Part shown: positions 2,625 through 60,757 of the stretch, piece after piece | Layout of the letters: every line of letters starts with the position of its first letter | How positions within the stretch are numbered: the stretch's first letter is position 1 | Source of the DNA: an uncultured Collinsella sp. | Lineage (GTDB): Bacteria > Actinomycetota > Coriobacteriia > Coriobacteriales > Coriobacteriaceae | NCBI GenBank assembly: GCA_900762355.1 | Contig: CAAFGE010000018.1 | Coordinates: 20,030-84,029 of the forward strand | Reading direction: 5' to 3' | DNA: 64,000 nucleotides | Notes under the pieces: generated by a model | What the model was told of the DNA's origin: nothing | Seen by the model: only the letters and a program-made list of their open reading frames with translations | The model's database searches: none | Position numbers and translations under genes: made by a program

Positions 2625-3526
2625 TCGAAAGCACCCACCAGCTCGTTGATGTCCTTTACGCCCTGGGACTCGGCCCAGGCCTCGAGCTCATGCGCGATCT
2701 TAAGCGAAGCACACGGATCGACGAAGTTGGCCATGCCGACCGACACGCAGGTGGCGCCGGCCAGGATAAACTCAGCCGCATCCTCGCCAGTCATGACACC
2801 GCCGACACCGTTGATGGGGATATCGACGGCCTGGGCAACCTCCCAGACCATGCGCACGGCGATGTGGTGGCAAAGCGGACCCGAAAGGCCGCCCTTGGGC
2901 TTGGCCACGCGGGACTTGCGGGTATGAACATCGATGGCCATGCCTTGGATGGAGTTAATGACCGAAAGGCCGTCGGCTCCCGCGGCCTCGAGAGCCTTGG
3001 CAATCTCGGCGACGTTGACCGGTGCCATCTTCACGAACAGCGGTTTATCGGTCACCTTGCGGCAGGCAGCCATAACGGAAGAGGCGCCCTCGGGCGTGGA
3101 GCCCATAGCGGCACCGCCGGCGGCGATATTAGGGCAGCTCACGTTGATCTCGTAGCCGGCAGCCCAGGGGCACAGCTCGACATACATCTCGAGTGCGCGG
3201 ACAAACTCGTCAACGGAGTGGCCGGCAACCTGACAGATGACCTGGCAGCCGTCCTTCGACAGCTGTTCGAGCCACGGACCGGACTCGCGGGCAAAGGCGG
3301 CCACGCCGGGGTTCTGAAGGCCCACGGAGTTGATCATGCCGCCGGGAATCTCGGCCATACGGGGCGCGGGGTTGCCGGGCCAGGGCTCGGCAGCGCAACC
3401 CTTGGTGGTGATGGCACCCAGCTGGGAAACATCAAAGAAGTTCTGGAACTGCCAACCGTAGCCAAAGGTACCGGCTGCGGTGTTGATGGGGTTCTGCATC
3501 TTGACGCCGCCGAAATCGACGGCCAT
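2618..3526 (-). CDS. pyrD: dihydroorotate dehydrogenase, class 1B catalytic subunit
   Basis: MAVDFGGVKMQNPINTAAGTFGYG... aligns with the B. subtilis PyrD N-terminus. Start taken at the internal ATG (3526), not the ORF-track extension to 3589. Confidence 0.9.
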   Translation of the reverse strand: MAVDFGGVKMQNPINTAAGTFGYGWQFQNFFDVSQLGAITTKGCAAEPWPGNPAPRMAEIPGGMINSVGLQNPGVAAFARESGPWLEQLSKDGCQVICQVAGHSVDEFVRALEMYVELCPWAAGYEINVSCPNIAAGGAAMGSTPEGASSVMAACRKVTDKPLFVKMAPVNVAEIAKALEAAGADGLSVINSIQGMAIDVHTRKSRVAKPKGGLSGPLCHHIAVRMVWEVAQAVDIPINGVGGVMTGEDAAEFILAGATCVSVGMANFVDPCASLKIAHELEAWAESQGVKDINELVGAFEC

Positions 3527-5714: not shown

Positions 5715-7243
<1,529 letters not shown>

Positions 7244-31813: not shown

Positions 31814-31925
31814 GATACTTCCCCTTCCATGCGCTTACGCGCACGACCGTGGTAACGAATCGACCCGCCGGATGCGGGCCGTGAGGGAACTATACGGCGG
31901 GTTTTGGACAGGCTTGAGCAGAGGG

Positions 31926-31973
31926 TGCGCGGTTTGGTAAACGTGCTAAAACCGGCGGTAAACGGTAGGTAAA
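31926..31973. repeat. three direct GGTAAA(C/G)G repeats plus an inverted GGTAACC, 110-160 bp upstream of ppdK
   Basis: Read in sequence: ggtaaacg (31926), ggtaaacgg (31947), ggtaaagg (31958), tggttacc (31966). Confidence 0.3.
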
Positions 31974-32082
31974 GGTGGTTACCTTATGAAGATACCACTA
32001 CAAGGAAAGTGCAGGTCGGATGCGATGTTTTTGCTAAATCGCTTTACCATTTATCAGCATTATTTCCAAGTATTCTCTTCGG

Positions 32083-32143
32083 TTAGCTAAAAGAGCCCCG
32101 TCCCAAATTAGCTACCCAAACAACCTTGTCCCAAGTGAGCTAC
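32083..32143. repeat. tandem ~26-bp units, each TAGCTA palindrome + (C/T)GTCCCAA(A/G), overlapping the stop of the PDRP gene
   Basis: TTAGCTAAaagagcCCCGTCCCAAA / TTAGCTACccaaacaaccTTGTCCCAAG / TGAGCTAC. Confidence 0.35.
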
Positions 32144-38611: not shown

Positions 38612-38851
38612 AGGAAACTCCTCCAACCAAGCAGCTTTAGGCTGCAACTACAAACAAACAGTTGAACATAATACGCCATCGACGCGGGCAGGTGAAGTCC
38701 GTGAGACCAACTTCTTCGGTGTAGTCGAGGGCAAATCCATATCTTAGACAAGAATTCGGGATTTGCAAGCACATACACGCACCCCACATGAGCTGCGCGG
38801 TATACTCATGACATGGAAAGACGCGAACATACATACGGTTATAAGGATGCC

Positions 38852-40066
38852 ATGGGCGTCACGCCACCTCCCTGGACGGGTCCGGCGGTGGGCCTCATGG
38901 ACCTCGATGCGTTTTTTGCGAGCGTGGAGATGCTCGATCATCCCGAATGGCGCGGAAAGCCGCTCATCGTGGGCGGAGACGCCGATTCGCGTGGCGTCGT
39001 GTCCACGTGTTCGTATGAGGCACGTCGCTTTGGCGTGCGCTCTGCCATGGCCTCGGCCGAGGCGCGGCGCTTGTGCCCGCAAGCCATTTGGACGCACGGG
39101 CACTTTGATCGCTACCGCGAGGTGAGCGCGCAGGTCATGGCTATTCTTGCCGAGGAGACGCCGCGCGTTGAGCGCGTATCCATCGACGAAGCCTTTATCG
39201 ATATCACACCGGGTCGCTTTGCGCCCGAGGACCCACTGCTGGTTGCACGGCGTATAAGCGACCGTGTGGCAGCGCTGGGAGTGACGTGCTCCATTGGCGT
39301 GGGCTGCAACAAGACGGTCGCAAAGATCGCAAGCGAGCGGGATAAGCCGTTTGGGCTGACCATCGTGCGCCCCGGAACCGAGCAGCGCTTTTTGGCCGCG
39401 CTGCCGGTATCTGCCATGAGCGGCATCGGGCGCTCGGCCGAGGAGCGACTGCGCCGTATGCGCATCTACACGCTCGGCGAGCTGTCACGCGCGCCGGAAT
39501 CCACCTTGGCCTCTATTTTTGGCGTCAACGGCGAACGTATGCGTCAGCGTGCGCTGGGACTTGAAATCTCCGAAGTCACGAGTCTCGATGAAGAGCGCAA
39601 GATCAAGTCGGTCAGCAATGAACGCACCTTTGCGAAAGATTTGACTGAGCGCGGGGACATCGAAGCGGCGATTGCGCTGCTGGGTGAGTCGGTTGGACGC
39701 CGCCTGCGCCGTCAGGGACTGACGGGCGGCACGGTAACGCTCAAGCTTAAGTATTCGTATGGCAGCGGGCGTACGGCACAGCGCCGGCTGCCTCATCCGA
39801 CCGACGATGAGAACATCTTCGTGGCGGTTGCACTCGAACTGCTCGACAACATCTGGCAGGAAGGCATGCATGTTCGCTTAGCGGGCATCGGCATGAGCGA
39901 CTTCGACCACCAAGGCGGCATCCAGACCGACCTGTTCTGCGAAGTCGACGACCGCGGAGCCCAATCAAGCGACCGTCGCGACCTCTCGGTCGCTATCGAC
40001 GCCGTCCGAGACAAGTTCGGCGACACCGCCCTATCTTTCGGCCGCCAATCCCGCTTCAACGATTAA
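38852..40066 (+). CDS. dinB: DNA polymerase IV (Y-family)
   Basis: MDLDAFFASVE...ARRFGVRSAM...SIDEAF Y-family palm motifs; ATG at 38852 chosen from ribosome-binding-site context. Confidence 0.85.
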   Translation: MGVTPPPWTGPAVGLMDLDAFFASVEMLDHPEWRGKPLIVGGDADSRGVVSTCSYEARRFGVRSAMASAEARRLCPQAIWTHGHFDRYREVSAQVMAILAEETPRVERVSIDEAFIDITPGRFAPEDPLLVARRISDRVAALGVTCSIGVGCNKTVAKIASERDKPFGLTIVRPGTEQRFLAALPVSAMSGIGRSAEERLRRMRIYTLGELSRAPESTLASIFGVNGERMRQRALGLEISEVTSLDEERKIKSVSNERTFAKDLTERGDIEAAIALLGESVGRRLRRQGLTGGTVTLKLKYSYGSGRTAQRRLPHPTDDENIFVAVALELLDNIWQEGMHVRLAGIGMSDFDHQGGIQTDLFCEVDDRGAQSSDRRDLSVAIDAVRDKFGDTALSFGRQSRFND

Positions 40067-40101
40067 CCGCCTTTAGGCAAAAAGAAAGCCGGGCAGCTGC
40101 G

Positions 40102-40136
40102 AATGATTATTCTAGGACGGGGATTTTTTAATCATT
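40102..40136. repeat. left 35-bp palindromic terminal repeat of the transposase element (AATGATTATT-CTAGGACGGGGA-TTTTTTAATCATT)
   Basis: Inverted copy of the 40988..41022 repeat (about 29/35 identity); internally a stem AATGATTA/TAATCATT with an asymmetric loop. Confidence 0.5.
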
Positions 40137-40143
40137 TGGAGCG

Positions 40144-40884
40144 TCATTTCGCCCTTTGAATGATATTGGTCCCAATTCCCGTCAGACGCGAAATCTGGTC
40201 AATCGTAAACCCCCGATGCCTCAACACTGCCAGAAGACGATTTCGCTCTGATTTCGGCAAAGTTTTAAGCTGATAAGGCTCATGCGGAGCCAAAAGAGCC
40301 CGGGCAACTTCCAGCGCATCCATATCGGAGATATGCTTACCTTCGGGCATAAAATAGGGATTAGGCTTGCCGTCGGTACTCGAAAGATAAAACGCTTCCG
40401 TACCCCCAAACAGATTGAGAATACCTTCACAATCACAAATTTCGGGATGAGAGAAATACTCATGGAAGCTGCTCCAGCGATACAGAGGAGCAGAAGAAAT
40501 ACCTGCTTTTGCAGGATTATCGTGTATGTATCGGACGCAACGGAGCAGCTGTTTGTCGTCAGAAATGATCACACTCTTGAATCGTTCCTGGAACACCGGT
40601 CCGCGGCGGCCGGTTTTTTGATTGAAGTGTTTCGCATATGCCGTATCAATCGCATGCATAGCAACGCTCATCTGATTATCGAGATCATCAAATAGCAGGT
40701 GAACATGATTGTCCATGAGGCACCAGGCAAGAAGACGAATATGAGCGGACGTAAATCGTCTGTTCAATAGATTGAGAAAATAAAGGCGATCGTCATCGTC
40801 TTCGAAGATCAGCTGGCCAGCACAGCCCTTGAGCATGACGTGATAATGGCCGAGTTCGGACAACGCACGGGCAACACGAGTCAT
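40144..40884 (-). CDS. IS200-like Y1 (HUH) transposase, REP-associated tyrosine transposase (RAYT)-like, with C-terminal HTH
   Basis: YHVMLKGCAGQLIFEDDDDRLYFLNLL and HVHLLF (HuH) match Transposase_17/RAYT. C-terminal HTH-like LTGIGTNIIQRA. ATG at 40884 with GGGAGG 6 nt upstream. GC is lower than in neighbouring genes. Confidence 0.75.
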   Translation of the reverse strand: MTRVARALSELGHYHVMLKGCAGQLIFEDDDDRLYFLNLLNRRFTSAHIRLLAWCLMDNHVHLLFDDLDNQMSVAMHAIDTAYAKHFNQKTGRRGPVFQERFKSVIISDDKQLLRCVRYIHDNPAKAGISSAPLYRWSSFHEYFSHPEICDCEGILNLFGGTEAFYLSSTDGKPNPYFMPEGKHISDMDALEVARALLAPHEPYQLKTLPKSERNRLLAVLRHRGFTIDQISRLTGIGTNIIQRAK

Positions 40885-40987
40885 CGAAACCCTCCCTTCC
40901 AAGGATGCAGTAGTCACAGCATACAAAAGGAAAGGAAGAAAAGGGCCGAACCGCCCAACAAAGGTGAGCGGTTCGGCAAACGGTAGC

Positions 40988-41022
40988 AATGATTATTTTA
41001 TCCCCGTCCCAGAAAAATCATT
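40988..41022. repeat. right 35-bp palindromic terminal repeat (AATGATTATT-TTATCCCCGTCCCAG-AAAAATCATT)
   Basis: Core is the reverse complement of the left-repeat core; its last base overlaps the rsfS stop codon. Confidence 0.5.
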
Positions 41023-41477
41023 TAGAGGAGGTCGAGGGGAAGCTGGGGGGCGTCGCCCCAGAGTTTCTCGAGGCGATAGAAGTCGCGGGCTTCGGGAGTA
41101 AAGACGTGGACGACAACCGAGCCGTAGTCCATGAGCATCCAGGTCTTCTGCTCGCGGCCCTCGATGGAGAACGGATGCTCGCCGCAAGCCTCGGCGACCT
41201 TCTCCTCGATTTCGTCGACGATGGAATCGACCTGGCGGTTGTTGGTACCGGTGGCGAGCACAAAGTAATCGCACACATCGGAAAGCTCGGTCAGGTCGAG
41301 CACCTGCACGTCCTCGCCCTTCTTGTCGTAGGCGGCCTGCGCGGCGGCGCGGGCGACATCCTCGGCGGCGACACCGCTCGCGGACAGCGAGGCGGCAGTG
41401 CGGTCGGACGTGGCAACGAAGCTCTTGTGCTCCACACCTTCAAGAATCTGCTCGTCGGTCATGGTCTCGTCGGCCAT
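41022..41477 (-). CDS. rsfS: ribosome silencing factor RsfS (Iojap)
   Basis: 151 aa; DYFVLATGTNNRQVDSIVDEI matches the RsfS core. Confidence 0.9.
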   Translation of the reverse strand: MADETMTDEQILEGVEHKSFVATSDRTAASLSASGVAAEDVARAAAQAAYDKKGEDVQVLDLTELSDVCDYFVLATGTNNRQVDSIVDEIEEKVAEACGEHPFSIEGREQKTWMLMDYGSVVVHVFTPEARDFYRLEKLWGDAPQLPLDLL

Positions 41478-56778: not shown

Positions 56779-57951
56779 TTAGAAACGCTGCTGCGGCTTC
56801 CAGGAACCCACATTGGCGTCGTACTGGTTCAGCGCGCTGTTGCCACCCTGCGCGATGGGCGCCAGGATCTCGCTTTGGTGGGAACTCATCGACTCGCCAT
56901 CGGGAATGGCCAGCGAGATGTCCCAGCTCTGGCAGATCACGTCGACGCGCTCATACATCCACTCGGCAAGCTGCTTTAAGTGGGCGATGTCGTCCGCATA
57001 GACCGTATCGTCCTGTACTTTCAGGTTGTTAAGCTCATCTTGCGTCTTTTTGATCTGGTCGCGCAGGGCGTAGGCACTCTGCGACAGCTCCTGACGGGTG
57101 GACAGCGGCGTTCGGAGATAGCCGTTGTTAAAGGAATCGATGACCTCGCCGATCTGGTCCTCGTCAGCGTAGGACACGATGGTCTGATACAGACCGTCGA
57201 GCCTGGTATAGAGCTGATCATCGGTGAGCACGGTTTCTTCCTGGACCACCTCGGCAGAATCGTCCTGCTTGGTATCGTCCTCAGTGGCCTCGCCCTTTTG
57301 GCGCGTGGGGAAGGTCGTCTGCGCGGCCTGGCCAAACTGGTCGTAGAAGCCAGGCATGACACCCATGGGATCGGTCGTCACGAACCAATAGGCACCGCCG
57401 CAAACGACGGCAAGGACCGCGATGACGATAAGCGGCTTGGGAATATGACGCTTGTGCTTGTGATAGGCATCCTCGTCGGGGTGCACCTTGCGCTTGGGTT
57501 TTTGAGCATCGTCATGCAGGGAAACGGGCATGGGAATATCGACCTTGGGGATACCGAAATCCTTATCGAAAGCTGGCAGCACGCAGGTCTCATTGGGGTC
57601 GGCGGCGTCCGAAAGCACCGCAGCGGCAGAGGCCGGCGCATGCGGCACCTCGGTATCGATCTGCTCTTGCGTTAGGCGCGGAAAGCCCGCCGTGCGGCCC
57701 GCTGCCAGATCGGATGCAGCCGCGTCCTCGGAGAGGATACCCGGAGCCGGGCGTCCGCATTTGGGGCATGTACGATCATGCGGAGAAAGACGGGCACCGC
57801 AGCCCTCACAGAACACAAACTCGGTGTGCTCGGGACCATCGCCCGGACCCACATAGGCGTTGCAGTAGGGGCAGAACGAGGCGCCGTCCTCGATAGTCTT
57901 AAGGCAATGCGGGCAGATCACGGCATCCTCTTTTCGAAGCAATTCAAACAA
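56779..57951 (-). CDS. double-zinc-ribbon membrane protein (hypothetical)
   Basis: Two CxxC...CxxC ribbons in the first 70 aa, one TM (LIVIAVLAVVCGGAYWFV), and a ~190-aa C-terminal domain. Confidence 0.65.
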   Translation of the reverse strand: MFELLRKEDAVICPHCLKTIEDGASFCPYCNAYVGPGDGPEHTEFVFCEGCGARLSPHDRTCPKCGRPAPGILSEDAAASDLAAGRTAGFPRLTQEQIDTEVPHAPASAAAVLSDAADPNETCVLPAFDKDFGIPKVDIPMPVSLHDDAQKPKRKVHPDEDAYHKHKRHIPKPLIVIAVLAVVCGGAYWFVTTDPMGVMPGFYDQFGQAAQTTFPTRQKGEATEDDTKQDDSAEVVQEETVLTDDQLYTRLDGLYQTIVSYADEDQIGEVIDSFNNGYLRTPLSTRQELSQSAYALRDQIKKTQDELNNLKVQDDTVYADDIAHLKQLAEWMYERVDVICQSWDISLAIPDGESMSSHQSEILAPIAQGGNSALNQYDANVGSWKPQQRF

Positions 57952-58024
57952 TCGAGGTTAGAGCATAACATCGCCACGGCTCCACTGGAGCAAGGCACCA
58001 ATTCAACATCGCCAGGGCGCGTAG

Positions 58025-60757
58025 TTACTTCTTCTTTTTGCTCGGCATCGAGACTTTGATGCCTTGGGCGGACTTGGTTACGCGAGAGCGCTTGGCTCCG
58101 CTACCCTTCTTTTTCTTGGGCTGGACCTGGGCCACGCCCTCGAGTGCGCGGGCCTCGGCCTCGCGAGCGGTGCGATCTTCGCGGCGCTGCGCCATGTCGG
58201 CGGCGACGCGCTTGGCAAAACGCTCCGCCGTCGAACCCGTCGAGCTCACCTTGCCGCCACCGCGACCCAGGCGGACGCGCACACCGCGTCCAAAACCAGT
58301 TGCGGCATGACGACGACGCGGCTTGAGCGAATCCATCATCGTGGCGAGCTTAAAGAACACCGAGCAGGTAAAGACCACGATGACAGCCAAGATAACCATC
58401 TGGCCCATCGACAGGTTGGCAATAGACAGCAGCTCCGGGAATCCGATAACGCCCACCAAGATGCCAGCGACTACAAACACAAAGAGCACCACGCGCAAGG
58501 GCGTGAGAGGCTGCGAGATGCGCCAGATCAGGCTGACGCTCGCCGCGCACGACGTAAGCAGGCACATCGTAGACAGCGTGAGCTGGCTAAAGCCAAACAC
58601 GCGCGCCACAAAGATATCGAGCGCCGCAGCCAAAATGACCGCAATCGACGCCGGCAGTGCACGCTTGAGCACGTTGGTCAAAAATGACCCCTTCACGCGA
58701 GCATTGTTGGGCTCCAGGCCCAACACAAAGCCCGGCGCGCCGATGCAGAAGAAGTTGATGAGCGTCATCTGAATCGGCTCGAAAGGGTACGGCGGCAGCG
58801 CGATGCACAGCGCCGCCAGGCCCATCGAGAACAGCGTCTTGGTCAAGAACAGCGAAGCCGAACGCTGCAGGTTGTTGATGGAGCGACGGCCTTCGGCCAC
58901 CACGGCGGGCATCGAGGCAAAGTCGTTGTCGACGAGCACGATCTCGGCCACGTTGCGCGCGGCATCGGAGCCGGCCGCCATGGCGACGGAGCAGTCGGCC
59001 TCCTTGAGCGCCAACACGTCGTTGACGCCGTCGCCCGTCATGGCCACGGTGTGCTCGCGGCGCTTGAGCGCCTGCACGAGCTCGCGCTTCTGCTGCGGGG
59101 TCACACGACCAAAGACATGGTAGCGGTCCACTGCGGCATCGAGCTTGGCCGGCGTATCGAGCGTCGTGGCGTCCACATAAGCGTCCGCCCCCGGCACGCC
59201 CACCACGCGCGCGATCGACGACACCGTACGCGGGTCGTCGCCACTGATCACGTTGAGGGTCACGCCCTGCTCGTTAAAGTAGCCGATGGTCTCGGCCGCC
59301 GAGGTACGAATCTCGTCGCGGATGGTCACAAAGCCCACGGGCTCGGCCTCGCCCGCCATATCGCCATCGGGCGTAAAGCCGTCCACGCGCGCCACCACGA
59401 GCACGCGGCAGGTATCGGCAAGCTCGGCGACACGGTTCTCGACCTGGGCAAACGCACGATCAGAGAGCACAAACTGCGCCGCACCCATCACATAGGAGCC
59501 CTGCGCAAACGACGCGCCGCTCCACTTTTTGGAGGACGAGAACGGAATGACCGACAGCGGCTCAGACACCTCGACCGGGCGATCGGCGTAATAGTTGAGC
59601 AGCGCCTGGCAGGTCTCGTTGGCATCGGCCGAAGTCGCACGCGCCACGTTAGCCAGCGCAAAATCGAGCACCGTGGTATCGACGGGAACGGCGGCGTCGC
59701 CCTCCCCCGCACCCATACCCTCGACCGGCAGCGGATACGTGCCCTCGACCTCCATGCGACCCGACGTGATGGTGCCCGTCTTGTCCAGGCACAGCACGTC
59801 GACGCGCGCGAGCGTCTCGATGCAGTAGAGCTGCTGCGCCAGCACCTTGCGGCGGGCCAGGCGCACCGTGGCGATGGCGAGCACCGACGAGGTCAGCAGC
59901 ACCAAGCCTTGCGGAATCATGCCCAGCAGGGCACCCACCGTGGACAGCAGCGCCGACGAAGGCACATGACCAGCCAACAGCTCGGAGAAGCACCACGAAA
60001 GCGCGCTGTCACCCGGGGTACCGGCGGCGTCCCACAGCTCGCTCACGCTCGAGGTGAACAGCGCCAGGCCAAGCGGAATCATGATGATGCTCGCAAAACG
60101 CACGATGGCGTTGAGCGCGTTCATGATCTCGGAATTGACCTTTTTTACGTACTTGGCCTCGTTGTTGATCTTGGCCACGTAGTTGTCGGCGCCGACATGG
60201 ATCACGCGGGCGCGAAGCAGGCCCGAATCGATAAAGCTGCCGCTCATGAGCTCGGAGCCGGGCTGCTTCTTAATGAGGTCGCTCTCGCCCGTCAGCAGGC
60301 TCTCGTTGACGAGCGCCTCGCCCGACACCACCACGGCGTCGACGGGAATCTGGTCGCCGCGCCCCAGGCGAATGATGTCGTCGAGCACGATCTGGTCCAG
60401 GTCGAGCTCCACCTCGGCCCCGTCGCGCACCGCGATGGCCTTCTTGGAGGTGAGCAGCGTGAGTTTGTCGACCATCTTCTTGGAGCGCATGGACTGAATG
60501 ACGCCAATCGCCGTGTTCAAGAACACCACGAACAAGAACGTCAAGTTCTTAAACGAACCGGTCAACAGGACCAGAATCGCCAAGACCACGTTAATCAAGT
60601 TGAACAACGTGCAGAGGTTCTCGATGATGAGCTCTTTGACCGACTTGGTCTTGAGCTCCATGTTGCGGTTGATCTTACCGGCGGCGATGCGCTCCTCGAC
60701 CTCGGCGGTCGAAAGTCCGCGCTCGATATCCGTTGCTGCCATACCACGTCCCATCAC
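58025..60757 (-). CDS. cation-transporting P-type ATPase (PacL/Ca2+-Mg2+ type) with Lys/Arg-rich C-terminal tail
   Basis: TGES actuator motif, DKTGTIT phosphorylation site, TGDGVNDVLALKEAD hinge, 10 predicted TM segments. Confidence 0.9.
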   Translation of the reverse strand: MMGRGMAATDIERGLSTAEVEERIAAGKINRNMELKTKSVKELIIENLCTLFNLINVVLAILVLLTGSFKNLTFLFVVFLNTAIGVIQSMRSKKMVDKLTLLTSKKAIAVRDGAEVELDLDQIVLDDIIRLGRGDQIPVDAVVVSGEALVNESLLTGESDLIKKQPGSELMSGSFIDSGLLRARVIHVGADNYVAKINNEAKYVKKVNSEIMNALNAIVRFASIIMIPLGLALFTSSVSELWDAAGTPGDSALSWCFSELLAGHVPSSALLSTVGALLGMIPQGLVLLTSSVLAIATVRLARRKVLAQQLYCIETLARVDVLCLDKTGTITSGRMEVEGTYPLPVEGMGAGEGDAAVPVDTTVLDFALANVARATSADANETCQALLNYYADRPVEVSEPLSVIPFSSSKKWSGASFAQGSYVMGAAQFVLSDRAFAQVENRVAELADTCRVLVVARVDGFTPDGDMAGEAEPVGFVTIRDEIRTSAAETIGYFNEQGVTLNVISGDDPRTVSSIARVVGVPGADAYVDATTLDTPAKLDAAVDRYHVFGRVTPQQKRELVQALKRREHTVAMTGDGVNDVLALKEADCSVAMAAGSDAARNVAEIVLVDNDFASMPAVVAEGRRSINNLQRSASLFLTKTLFSMGLAALCIALPPYPFEPIQMTLINFFCIGAPGFVLGLEPNNARVKGSFLTNVLKRALPASIAVILAAALDIFVARVFGFSQLTLSTMCLLTSCAASVSLIWRISQPLTPLRVVLFVFVVAGILVGVIGFPELLSIANLSMGQMVILAVIVVFTCSVFFKLATMMDSLKPRRRHAATGFGRGVRVRLGRGGGKVSSTGSTAERFAKRVAADMAQRREDRTAREAEARALEGVAQVQPKKKKGSGAKRSRVTKSAQGIKVSMPSKKKK

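What the first reader, a model, noticed from the sequence alone, without database searches (positions are those of the whole stretch)
40102..41022. REPtron-like insertion: RAYT/IS200-like Y1 transposase with C-terminal HTH, bracketed by inverted 35-bp palindromic repeats, wedged between dinB and rsfS
A 246-aa protein carries the HuH motif (HVHLLF) and the N-terminal RAYT/IS200 signature (YHVMLKG...IFEDDDDRLYFL) plus a C-terminal HTH-like tail. It sits in a clearly lower-GC ~0.9 kb segment. The two ends are near-identical 35-mers whose central cores (CTAGGACGGGGA versus its reverse complement ATCCCCGTCCCAG) are inverted relative to each other. Their outer arms (AATGATTATT...AATCATT) form an 8-bp stem, so each end is a REP-like hairpin. 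That is the arrangement described for REP-associated tyrosine transposases, not the usual IS200 layout. The right repeat overlaps the rsfS stop codon, and the left lies 36 bp after dinB, so the element occupies the whole convergent intergenic space. This could be a domesticated RAYT with a matching REP family elsewhere in the genome.
Basis: partly seen in the sequence, partly recalled or inferred. Interest (0 to 1): 0.6.

Follow-up and report, generated by a model that had tools for sequence, protein, structure and literature searches.

The report
Collinsella tyrosine-transposase cassette with dispersed repeats
This is a 921-bp cassette in a Collinsella gut bacterium that encodes a RAYT-like single-strand-DNA transposase, and its inverted end repeats belong to a short repeat family scattered around Collinsella genomes; it is a new example of the already described 'TIRtron/TIRYT' kind.

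Summary
An intact 246-aa HUH/Y1 protein (40147-40884, minus strand) sits in a low-GC segment bounded by two 35-nt units in inverted orientation (40102-40136, 40988-41022).

- **Protein.** The N-terminal fold is closest to E. coli TnpA-REP. The protein scores below NCBIfam's RAYT cut-off and carries a conserved C-terminal HTH. This matches the published TIRYT class (TnpA-Y1 subclass 2.1).
- **Repeats.** The 35-nt unit is dispersed in Collinsella genomes. Of 120 loci retrieved, 116 lie away from the gene, at about 21 distinct sites.
- **Doublets.** At 13 sites the unit occurs as a 78-nt palindromic doublet with a conserved 8-nt spacer. The arms show strong compensatory changes, as in REPINs or MITEs.
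The 8-bp hairpin within a single unit gets no covariation support.
- **Second lineage.** A 57%-identical Y1 lineage occupies the same rsfS-dinB locus in other strains and is flanked by a sister repeat subfamily.
- **Empty alleles.** Other strains with identical RsfS lack the gene.
- **Selection and history.** The gene is under strong purifying selection (dN/dS about 0.04). Its history is decoupled from that of rsfS.

Verdict: a new member of a known kind, of moderate interest.

The parts
40102..41022 (-). Whole cassette (TIRtron): low-GC segment bounded by the two inverted 35-nt units. This is the segment that differs between occupied and empty alleles.
   Evidence: Flank homology with the empty allele L144 stops at window 41023 and resumes at about 40103.
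40988..41022 (.). Upstream (gene-sense) A-type unit, read on the minus strand as AATGATTTTTCTGGGACGGGGATAAAATAATCATT. It overlaps the rsfS stop codon by 1 nt.
   Evidence: It has the same orientation as the left half of the dispersed 78-nt doublets.
40945..40977 (-). Intrinsic-terminator-like hairpin (13-bp stem with 9 G-C pairs, then CCTTTTCTTC) between the upstream unit and the Y1 start. It probably terminates the obg-nadD-HD-rsfS transcript.
   Evidence: I7.
40890..40895 (-). Shine-Dalgarno-like GGAGGG, 5 nt before the ATG.
   Evidence: Read directly from the sequence.
40144..40884 (-). Y1/HUH tyrosine transposase-like gene of 246 aa, TIRYT type. The core spans about residues 1-145 (HUH at H60/H62, catalytic Tyr119 in the RYIHDNPAKAG motif). 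A helical C-terminal domain ends in an HTH (residues about 211-244).
   Evidence: dN/dS 0.04-0.05.
40102..40136 (.). Downstream (gene-sense) A-type unit, read on the minus strand as AATGATTAAAAAATCCCCGTCCTAGAATAATCATT. It is inverted relative to the upstream unit. An extended 14-nt stem (40096-40109 with 40129-40142) is followed, in gene sense, by TGCCCGGCTTTCTTTTT.
   Evidence: (I1, I5).

Best explanation
The segment is a TIRtron: a single-locus gene for a TIRYT-type HUH/Y1 enzyme, flanked by its cognate terminal inverted repeats. TIRYT enzymes are RAYT-like, with a TnpA-REP-like catalytic core and a C-terminal HTH domain.

The same 35-nt unit (A type, core TGGGACGGGGAT between AATGATT/AATCATT arms) is scattered through Collinsella chromosomes. 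It occurs as single units and as 78-nt palindromic doublets: unit, 8-nt spacer AGGTACAC or its complement, then inverted unit. The doublets have the same end-to-end architecture as the cassette, with the gene replaced by 8 nt. They therefore look like non-autonomous (MITE- or REPIN-like) derivatives.

**Most likely mechanism (inferred).** The enzyme recognises the unit or doublet on single-stranded DNA, cleaves it and rejoins it through Tyr119 and the HUH metal site, and so copies or moves the doublets in trans. The gene itself stays at the rsfS-dinB locus.

**Sister lineage.** A second Y1 lineage (249 aa, 57% identical) uses the same locus in other strains. It is flanked by a sister repeat subfamily (B type, core GGGACGGGGC between GTAGCT/AGCTAC-like arms).

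**Shown here:** fold and catalytic residues; the inverted flanks; dispersal; palindrome maintenance; lineage-specific flanks; presence/absence polymorphism; purifying selection.

**Inferred:** catalysis on these repeats, the single-stranded substrate, mobilisation in trans, and the role of the HTH.
For: **Protein**
- Y1_Tnp scores above its cut-off. REP_Tyr_transpos is the best NCBIfam hit.
- H60, Y119, N123 and P124 are invariant, and H62 is kept in at least 90% of 51 homologues. R214, Q230, T235 and G236 in the HTH are conserved.
- The AF2 model has pLDDT 93.6. Its best PDB match is 4ER8 TnpA-REP (E 1.4e-7, TM 0.72). IS200/IS608/ISDra2 TnpA match at E of about 1e-4.

**Repeats**
- Only 4 of the 120 are the Y1 locus. 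The flanks cluster into 23 groups, which is about 21 other sites.
- Doublets with the conserved spacer occur at 13 distinct sites.
- In the doublets, 97.7% of cells are paired. Ten of 34 pairs carry changes on both sides, in 27 cells, and 0 of 500 shuffles reach this.

**Cognate pairing of gene and repeat**
- The 246-aa lineage and its 84-86% alleles are flanked by A-type units.
- The 249-aa lineage at the same locus is flanked by B-type units.
- More distant homologues at other loci are flanked by long inverted repeats containing GGGGACAG. These are P0039 (46% identical) and P0060 (42% identical).

**Polymorphism**
- Strains with identical RsfS are occupied (including CP048433.1) or empty (including CP024160.1).
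- The breakpoints fall at the outer ends of the two units.
- Two doublet sites are unoccupied in this window.

**Selection.** dN/dS is 0.04-0.05.

**Literature.** TIRtron/TIRYT is defined in PMC3733652. Subclass 2.1 with a C-terminal HTH is defined in PMC6006769.
Against: - No biochemical or in vivo evidence links this protein to these repeats. The association is positional and comparative only.
- Copy number within a single genome could not be measured. The scan was truncated, and the 64-kb window holds only the two flanking A-type units plus one B-type unit.
- The Collinsella core TGGGACGG matches the published TIR motif GGGGWSAS at only 6 of 8 positions.
- The HTH match to Pfam models is below the gathering score. 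The isolated C-terminal model has no significant structural match.
- Palindrome symmetry in the doublets could come from a copying process, such as fold-back synthesis or gene conversion, rather than from selection on a hairpin substrate.
- B-type units are present in this window although the resident gene is the A lineage. Repeats can therefore persist without their cognate gene nearby.
- Co-occurrence of gene and repeat across genomes was not tested.
Confidence: 0.72

Rival explanations
1. It is an autonomous insertion sequence, related to IS200/IS605 or IS-like, that transposes as a whole. The empty alleles would then be pre-insertion sites.
For: - Strains with identical RsfS differ by presence or absence, and the breakpoints lie at the outer ends of the two units.
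- Gene GC is 0.48 against 0.61 for the window.
- Y1 dS is about 2.0 between alleles whose adjacent rsfS differs by dS 0.25-0.35. Conversely, Y1 dS is 0.012 where rsfS dS is 0.17. The cassette's history is therefore decoupled from its flank.
Against: - Every copy of this lineage and of the 57% sister lineage that was recovered lies at the same rsfS-dinB locus: L001, L002, L026, L029, L097, L119, L137, L139, L143, L142 and L146.
- None of the 116 other repeat loci has a Y1 gene within the 8-kb block.
- There is no tnpB. The ends are inverted copies of one unit, not the distinct left-end and right-end hairpins on one strand that IS200/IS605 elements have.
- The empty allele is not a clean target. 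It holds 63 bp of other sequence, including a B-type unit and a leader-like TACCGTTTGCCG also found inside the cassettes. It looks more like a remnant after gene loss.
- No A-type unit is found in viral contigs, and only 8 relatives at 33-39% identity are found there.
Confidence: 0.1
2. It is a canonical REPtron: a bona fide RAYT (an equivalog of E. coli TnpA-REP, Bertels group 2/3 type) with classical REP hairpins.
For: - The best NCBIfam family is REP_Tyr_transpos, and the best structural match is 4ER8.
- The flanks are inverted and the repeat family is dispersed.
- The doublets behave like REPINs.
Against: - The score is 65.7 bits, below the curated 80. phmmer against 4ER8 gives only E 0.28.
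- A conserved C-terminal domain of about 100 aa is absent from the 165-aa TnpA-REP.
- A-type units have no GTAG tag and no G+C-rich stem. The 7-8-bp A+T stem with a 19-nt loop is thermodynamically weak and shows no covariation.
- The abundance seen here is modest: about 21 A-type sites across the genus sample, and none besides the flanks in 64 kb.
Confidence: 0.12
3. The repeats are host elements, such as transcription terminators, mRNA stabilisers or sites for a DNA-binding protein. On this view their presence next to the Y1 gene is incidental, or the gene simply landed in a repeat-rich spacer.
For: - Units sit at gene 3' ends and overlap stop codons, both at rsfS and at the largest cluster (...CGCCGCTAA|ATGATT).
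- Long palindromes can terminate transcription.
- B-type units occur where the resident Y1 gene is of the A lineage.
Against: - Flank type follows the Y1 lineage: A with the 246-aa lineage, B with the 249-aa lineage, and other inverted repeats with more distant homologues.
- The doublet, including its 8-nt spacer, is copied to 13 unrelated sites, which requires a dispersal mechanism.
- No Rfam family matches.
Confidence: 0.06

Closest known systems
TIRtron / TIRYT (TIR-associated tyrosine transposase; Di Nocera, De Gregorio & Rocco 2013, PMC3733652)
   Same: - A RAYT-like HUH/Y1 gene, longer than RAYTs, flanked by terminal inverted repeats rather than GTAG REPs.
- The TIRs form a moderately abundant family present as singles and dimers.
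- A G-rich motif is shared among the TIRs. Relatives here carry the exact GGGGACAG.
   Different: - The host is a gut actinobacterium (Collinsella). No paper found here describes such a system in Collinsella.
- The core is TGGGACGG, a 6-of-8 match to GGGGWSAS.
- Two Y1 lineages with sister repeat subfamilies alternate at a single locus.
- The doublets are near-perfect 34-bp-arm palindromes with documented compensatory changes.
TnpA-Y1 subclass 2.1 (Quentin, Siguier, Chandler & Fichant 2018, PMC6006769)
   Same: - A long protein with a C-terminal HTH-like extension (HTH_23 or HTH_28 type).
- Conserved serines after the catalytic Tyr (WSS at 137-139).
- Not IS-like.
   Different: - That study found no REP-like sequences near subclass 2.1 genes. 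Here the flanking units are clearly members of a dispersed family.
- Placement in subclass 2.1 was not tested phylogenetically here.
E. coli TnpA-REP / REPtron (PDB 4ER8)
   Same: - It is the best structural match for the catalytic core.
- HUH and the Y-I-x-x-N-P motif align.
- The gene is flanked by inverted repeat units.
   Different: - TnpA-REP is 165 aa with no HTH domain.
- Sequence identity is 19%.
- REPs are GTAG-tagged, G+C-rich hairpins present in hundreds of copies.
REPIN-RAYT systems (Bertels & Rainey 2011, PMC3116915; Bertels et al. 2017, PMC5581495)
   Same: - Inverted doublets form a long hairpin with compensatory changes.
- Singlets exist alongside doublets.
- The transposase is at a single locus, under purifying selection, and flanked by its own repeat type.
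   Different: - REPIN-RAYT systems were described mainly for group 2/3 RAYTs of Proteobacteria and are vertically inherited.
- Here the gene is present or absent among near-identical backgrounds, and its divergence is decoupled from the neighbouring gene.
IS200/IS605 TnpA (IS608, ISDra2)
   Same: The HUH/Y1 fold, with Foldseek E of about 1e-4.
   Different: - No tnpB and no multi-copy gene.
- The ends are inverted copies of one unit.
- The Y motif is of the RAYT type (Y-I-H-x-N-P), not the Y---Q of subclass 1.1 (PMC6006769).

Membership tests
HUH/Y1 transposase superfamily (Pfam PF01797 Y1_Tnp) | HMM score above the gathering threshold | tested here: met
   39.8 bits against 23, E 5.7e-10. All 51 aligned homologues match.
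HUH/Y1 transposase superfamily (Pfam PF01797 Y1_Tnp) | HUH motif and catalytic tyrosine conserved | tested here: met
   H60 is invariant, H62 is kept in at least 90%, and Y119 is invariant in 51 homologues. These residues align with HMH and D-Y-I-Y-I-N-P of 4ER8.
HUH/Y1 transposase superfamily (Pfam PF01797 Y1_Tnp) | Y1 transposase fold | tested here: met
   The AF2 model has pLDDT 93.6. The top 30 Foldseek PDB hits are all TnpA-REP, IS200, IS608 or ISDra2 transposases.
RAYT, strict sense (NCBIfam NF047646 REP_Tyr_transpos, equivalog) | Score at or above the curated cut-off of 80 bits | tested here: not met
   65.7 bits, E 4e-18. It is the best family hit but falls below the cut-off.
REPtron (RAYT gene plus REPs) | Gene flanked by repeat units in inverted orientation | tested here: met
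   35-nt arms, 83% complementary, 851 nt apart.
REPtron (RAYT gene plus REPs) | Units are classical REPs: 20-40-nt imperfect G+C-rich palindromes with a GTAG (or CGTC) tag | tested here: not met
   A-type units have 7-8-bp A+T arms around an asymmetric 19-nt core and no GTAG. Folding is not better than shuffles in 3 of 4 cases. The unit stem shows no covariation.
REPtron (RAYT gene plus REPs) | The same unit is present in many copies in extragenic space of the same genome | tested here: inconclusive
   The unit is dispersed at about 21 sites across Collinsella genomes. The per-genome count is not obtainable because the scan was truncated at 120 rows. The window has no extra A-type copy in 64 kb.
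TIRtron / TIRYT (PMC3733652) | RAYT-like tyrosine transposase gene flanked by terminal inverted repeats that are not GTAG REPs | tested here: met
   The same layout is seen in homologues L006 (58-nt and 24-33-nt arms) and L148 (49-nt arms, 94% complementary).
TIRtron / TIRYT (PMC3733652) | TIR carries the GGGGWSAS motif (stated for the majority of TIRs, not all) | tested here: inconclusive
   The Collinsella core TGGGACGG matches 6 of 8 positions. GGGGACAG is exact in the TIRs of homologues P0039 and P0060.
TIRtron / TIRYT (PMC3733652) | TIRs may form a repeat family of singles, dimers or groups | tested here: met
   Singles and 78-nt or roughly 110-nt dimers are found at 21 or more sites.
TnpA-Y1 subclass 2.1 (PMC6006769) | C-terminal extension similar to Bac_DnaA_C, HTH_23 or HTH_28 | tested here: inconclusive
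   HTH_23 gives E 0.0014, 18.8 bits against a cut-off of 24.6. Of 51 homologues, 5 hit HTH_23, 1 hits HTH_28 and none hits Bac_DnaA_C. The isolated C-terminal model (pLDDT 89) has only generic, non-significant HTH matches.
TnpA-Y1 subclass 2.1 (PMC6006769) | Phylogenetic placement with the subclass 2.1 reference sequences | not tested
REPIN (PMC3116915) | Two inverted units with a short spacer, maintained as a hairpin and dispersed as one unit | tested here: met
   13 sites share the spacer AGGTACAC or its complement. 97.7% of cells are paired, with 27 compensatory cells and 0 of 500 shuffles.
IS200/IS605 insertion sequence | Multi-copy element, distinct subterminal left-end and right-end hairpins on one strand, often with tnpB | tested here: not met
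   The gene is seen at one locus only. The ends are inverted copies of one unit. There is no tnpB in the cassette.

The most novel reading that the evidence does not exclude
Collinsella may harbour a genuine replicator system of the REPIN-RAYT type, run by TIRYT enzymes (subclass 2.1, previously reported to lack REPs).
- Two diverged enzyme lineages, each with its own repeat subfamily, would compete for a single chromosomal docking site next to rsfS.
- The cassettes would be swapped or lost between strains by recombination.
- A-type doublets would preferentially land in or replace B-type units. This pattern is seen at rsfS-dinB and at window 32050-32140.

If true, TIRYT systems would become experimentally tractable in an abundant human gut actinobacterium. 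The doublets would also become strain-level markers.
Probability: 0.4. Interest if true: 0.5.

Novelty: new member of a known kind. Interest (0 to 1): 0.38.

Why it matters
RAYT/REPIN biology has been worked out almost entirely in Proteobacteria. TIRYT-type enzymes with an HTH tail form the second largest TnpA-Y1 subclass, yet they have no demonstrated substrate. The main survey of the subclass found no repeats beside them.

Collinsella offers a clean natural data set:
- an intact, strongly constrained gene;
- flanks that match a dispersed family;
- palindromic doublets with compensatory changes;
- two gene lineages, each with its own repeat type;
- naturally occurring empty alleles.

This gives direct candidates for biochemical tests of what TIRYTs cut and what the HTH binds. 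It also explains assembly breaks and small palindromic insertions and deletions in a very common human gut genus. It does not reveal a new kind of system.

Tried and rejected
Folding is weak, and there is no covariation in A-type doublets or in 43 B-type singlets (72.9% paired, 319 of 500 shuffles as good). My first impression that the arms covary between subfamilies was not borne out statistically.
2. **Test for extragenic location.** I used the longest stop-free frame across each unit. It is uninformative in a 61% G+C genome: even the known intergenic rsfS-side unit is spanned by 190-344 stop-free codons. I make no systematic claim about extragenic location. Only individual sites were checked.
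3. **C-terminal domain on its own.** The AF2 model is good (pLDDT 89.4), but Foldseek against the PDB gave nothing below E 0.4. The HTH stays generic.
4. **Rfam** over 31.5-41.6 kb found no match.
5. **Viral contigs.** No A-type unit was found, and only 8 distant protein relatives. There is no sign of phage carriage.
6. **Global alignment of occupied against empty allele.** It scattered short spurious blocks through the gene. Only the two terminal anchors are used.
7. **Per-genome copy number** could not be obtained.
8. **A first regex for doublets** used the wrong spacing and found nothing. It was corrected.
Full report
**1. What is in the window**

Between dinB (38813-40066, plus strand) and rsfS (41022-41477, minus strand) lies a 921-bp segment, 40102-41022. 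Its G+C content is 0.47-0.50 in a 0.61 background. It holds one gene on the minus strand: ATG at 40884, GGAGGG 5 nt upstream, stop at 40146-40144, 246 aa.

The segment is bounded by two 35-nt units, 40102-40136 and 40988-41022. They are 83% complementary to each other as an inverted repeat. The arm pattern occurs nowhere else in the 64 kb and in none of 100 shuffles.

A strong terminator-like hairpin (40945-40977, minus strand) sits between the upstream unit and the gene. It presumably ends the obg-nadD-HD-rsfS transcript.

**2. The protein**

- Pfam Y1_Tnp matches above threshold (39.8 bits against 23).
- The best NCBIfam family is REP_Tyr_transpos, but at 65.7 bits it falls below the curated 80.
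- In an alignment of 51 homologues at 37-84% identity, H60, Y119, N123 and P124 are invariant and H62 is nearly so. The HUH site and the catalytic tyrosine (in R-Y-I-H-D-N-P-A-K-A-G) are therefore intact.
- The C-terminal roughly 100 residues are conserved across the family. They end in a helix-turn-helix with consensus L-S-x-R-Q-I-E-R-L-T-G-I-G-R-x-x-I-x-R-A, in which R214, Q230, T235 and G236 are conserved.
- An AlphaFold model built on this alignment is confident (pLDDT 93.6, pTM 0.89).
- Its best PDB match is the E. coli REP-associated tyrosine transposase bound to a REP hairpin: 4ER8, E 1.4e-7, TM 0.72 on the target, 150 columns. This is ahead of the ISDra2, IS200 and IS608 transposases at E of about 1e-4.
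- The isolated C-terminal domain also folds confidently (pLDDT 89.4). It has only weak, generic HTH-type matches, and its Pfam HTH hits are below threshold.
- dN/dS between alleles is 0.04-0.05, so the protein is under strong purifying selection.

**3. The repeats are a dispersed family**

One scan of the species-representative genome collection used the pattern TNGGACGGGGATNNNNNAATCATT. All but one are labelled Collinsella or Coriobacteri(ac)eae; the exception, L131, is labelled Oscillospiraceae.

Only 4 of the 120 are the rsfS-Y1-dinB locus. The other 116 have no Y1 gene in the 8-kb block. Clustering the flanks gives 23 groups: the two sides of the Y1 locus plus about 21 other genomic sites, each shared by several Collinsella species.

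Many copies are doublets: unit, an 8-nt spacer (AGGTACAC, GCGTACCT and their complements), then the inverted unit. This makes a 78-nt palindrome. Doublets with this conserved spacer occur at 13 different sites, so the doublet as a whole has been disseminated.

On 26 distinct doublets:
- The 34-bp arm pairing holds in 97.7% of cells.
- Ten of 34 pairs carry changes on both sides, in 27 cells.
- No shuffle out of 500 reaches any of the measures.
- Slid controls fall to 38-58% paired.

Several compensatory changes are independent. One example is ATGATTATT...AATAATCAT against ATGATTTTT...AAAAATCAT at a single orthologous site. Others are ATGTTT/AAACAT, ATGAGT/ACTCAT and GTGATT/AATCAC at other sites.

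Two further observations:
- The same site can carry a singlet in some species and a doublet in others (L048, L052 and L081 against L024, L064 and L123).
- The spacer can be flipped at one site (L030 against L049).

**4.

Folding the four end/strand combinations gives one modest hairpin (-7.6 kcal/mol, z -3.2). The other three are no better than shuffles. In the doublet alignment, the within-unit stem (AATGATT with AATCATT) is paired in 90.9% of cells. However, 72 of 500 shuffles do as well, and there is one compensatory cell. Outer-arm variants break the within-unit stem while keeping the pairing across the doublet.

For the sister (B-type) subfamily, I aligned 43 singlets and tested the 11-bp arm pairing. 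It is 72.9% paired and not above shuffles (319 of 500). The conserved structure is therefore the doublet-level palindrome, not the unit hairpin.

**5. A sister subfamily and a sister gene at the same locus**

All copies share the core CCCCGTCCC (GGGACGGGG on the other strand).
- **A type:** AATGATT-(T/A)TT(T/A)AAT-core-AGAA(A/T)-AATCAT.
- **B type:** GTAGCT, GTAGTC or GCAGCT, then AAAAAAG-core-AAAT(T/G), then AGCTAC, GACTAC or AGCTGC.

At least 48 B-type units lie in the 0.86 Mb of retrieved Collinsella sequence. One lies in this window at 32080-32114, in an intergenic gap.

Looking up the window's exact RsfS protein returned ten contexts:
- Three carry the 246-aa gene with A-type flanks: L137 (CP048433.1, C. 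aerofaciens JCM 10188T), L139 and L143.
- One (L142) carries a different 249-aa Y1 gene. It is 57% identical to the window protein and belongs to the lineage of P0008, P0010 and P0011. It is flanked by B-type units. L146 confirms this arrangement.
- Six have no gene: L136, L138, L140, L141 (CP024160.1), L144 and L145.

In the empty alleles the 98-bp spacer holds three things:
- a B-type unit, intact in L144 and decayed in the others;
- a short stretch (TACCGTTTGCCG) that also follows the upstream unit inside both cassettes;
- a terminator hairpin, whose 3' half survives next to the downstream unit in the window.

Homology between the occupied and empty alleles stops at window 41023 and resumes at about 40103. 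These are the outer ends of the two 35-mers. The polymorphic segment is therefore the TIR-bounded cassette. The 'empty' allele looks like a remnant rather than a virgin target.

**6. Generality in the protein family**

- A 58% orthologue (P0007, L003-L005) lies at the same rsfS-dinB locus. Its neighbours have diverged to 85% (RsfS) and 79% (DinB). It is flanked by units with the related core AGGACGGGGTCC.
- A 46% homologue (P0039, L006) lies at an ilvD/ABC locus. It is flanked by a 58-nt-arm doublet upstream and inverted units downstream.
- A 42% homologue (P0060, L148) lies between adhE and rpmB. It is flanked by 49-nt inverted repeats that are 94% complementary.
- Both of these carry GGGGACAG.
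- Many homologues sit on contigs of about 0.9-1.3 kb, and L001 starts inside the upstream unit. This is what repeats at both gene ends do to short-read assemblies.

**7. History of the cassette**

The window allele differs from the L002 and L029 alleles by dS of about 2.0, although the adjacent rsfS genes differ by only 0.25-0.35. Conversely, the window and L137 genes differ by dS 0.012 where rsfS differs by 0.17. The genes of this family are 6-13 G+C points below their host loci.

The gene therefore stays at one locus but is not simply co-inherited with its neighbours. Allelic replacement, loss and re-acquisition by recombination are likely. The A-type unit was not found in viral contigs.

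**8. Presence/absence of doublets**

Two doublet sites have orthologous positions in this window. At 32050-32140 the window has a B-type unit where L027, L077 and L096 have an A-type doublet. At 58018-58028, an intergenic gap, the window has no doublet where L095 and L102 have one. The boundaries at these sites are not clean, so no target-site rule can be read from them.

**9. Comparison with what is known**

- Di Nocera et al. 2013 (PMC3733652) named RAYT-like genes flanked by terminal inverted repeats 'TIRtrons' and their enzymes 'TIRYTs'. They noted the GGGGWSAS motif in many TIRs. They also noted that some TIRs form moderately abundant families of singles and dimers.
- Quentin et al. 2018 (PMC6006769) defined TnpA-Y1 subclass 2.1. 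Its members are long proteins with a C-terminal HTH related to Bac_DnaA_C, HTH_23 or HTH_28. The subclass 'probably corresponds to the TIRYT', and no REP-like sequences were found nearby.
- Bertels et al. 2017 (PMC5581495) showed that RAYTs outside groups 2 and 3 have few associated repeats.

The Collinsella cassette fits TIRtron/TIRYT on every feature I could test. It fails two defining features of the canonical RAYT/REP system: the curated HMM cut-off and the classical REP structure. A search for papers mentioning both Collinsella and REP-associated tyrosine transposases turned up only one incidental co-mention.

**10. Verdict**

It is a new, unusually clear member of the TIRtron/TIRYT kind, not a new kind of system.

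The mechanism is inferred, not shown. I propose that the enzyme processes its own repeat type on single-stranded DNA and mobilises the 78-nt doublets in trans.

Two main gaps remain. The first is the per-genome copy number. The second is the correlation between gene and repeats across genomes. Both can be settled on complete Collinsella genomes.

Noticed in passing
window 32080-32114 (intergenic gap 31814-32139): A B-type repeat unit (GTTAGCTAAAAGAGCCCCGTCCCAAATTAGCTAC) with the same CCCCGTCCC core as the cassette ends. A partial second copy follows (CCTTGTCCCAAGTGAGCTAC). Other Collinsella species carry an A-type 78-nt doublet at this orthologous position (L027, L077, L096).
   Followed up: partly
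window 58018-58028 (gap between ORFs 56779..57951 and 58025..60757): This is the orthologous position of an A-type doublet present in L095 and L102. The window has no doublet and a shorter, different spacer.
   Followed up: partly
L142 3187-3936 and L146 1754-2503: A second Y1/HTH gene lineage (249 aa, 57% identical to the window protein; clusters P0008, P0010 and P0011, which together have more than 2,700 member sequences). It occupies the same rsfS-dinB locus and is flanked by B-type units.
   Followed up: partly
L136, L138, L140, L141, L144, L145, positions about 2956-3055: Empty rsfS-dinB alleles in strains with an RsfS protein identical to the window's. The 98-bp spacer holds an intact or decayed B-type unit plus a terminator hairpin, and looks like a remnant of a lost cassette.
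   Followed up: yes
L131 (CAVEDI010000257.1, labelled Oscillospiraceae bacterium): This contig carries a Collinsella-type A doublet and two B-type units. It is probably a mis-binned Collinsella contig in that MAG.
   Followed up: no
L037 about 7070-7085; L001 start; homologue list: Assemblies break or have N-gaps at these palindromes, and many homologues sit on contigs of 0.9-1.3 kb. The repeats are a practical cause of fragmentation in Collinsella assemblies.
   Followed up: no
P0004 (152 aa, 99% identical) and P0025 (301 aa, 100% identical over 44% of the query, Pfam PF07275): Truncated or chimeric versions of the window protein exist in other assemblies. They may be pseudogenes or gene-calling artefacts.
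   Followed up: no
L030 against L049, and L024/L064 against L123 (same orthologous sites): The 8-nt spacer of the doublet is in opposite orientation in different species at the same site. This could reflect flip-flop inversion between the arms or independent insertions.
   Followed up: no
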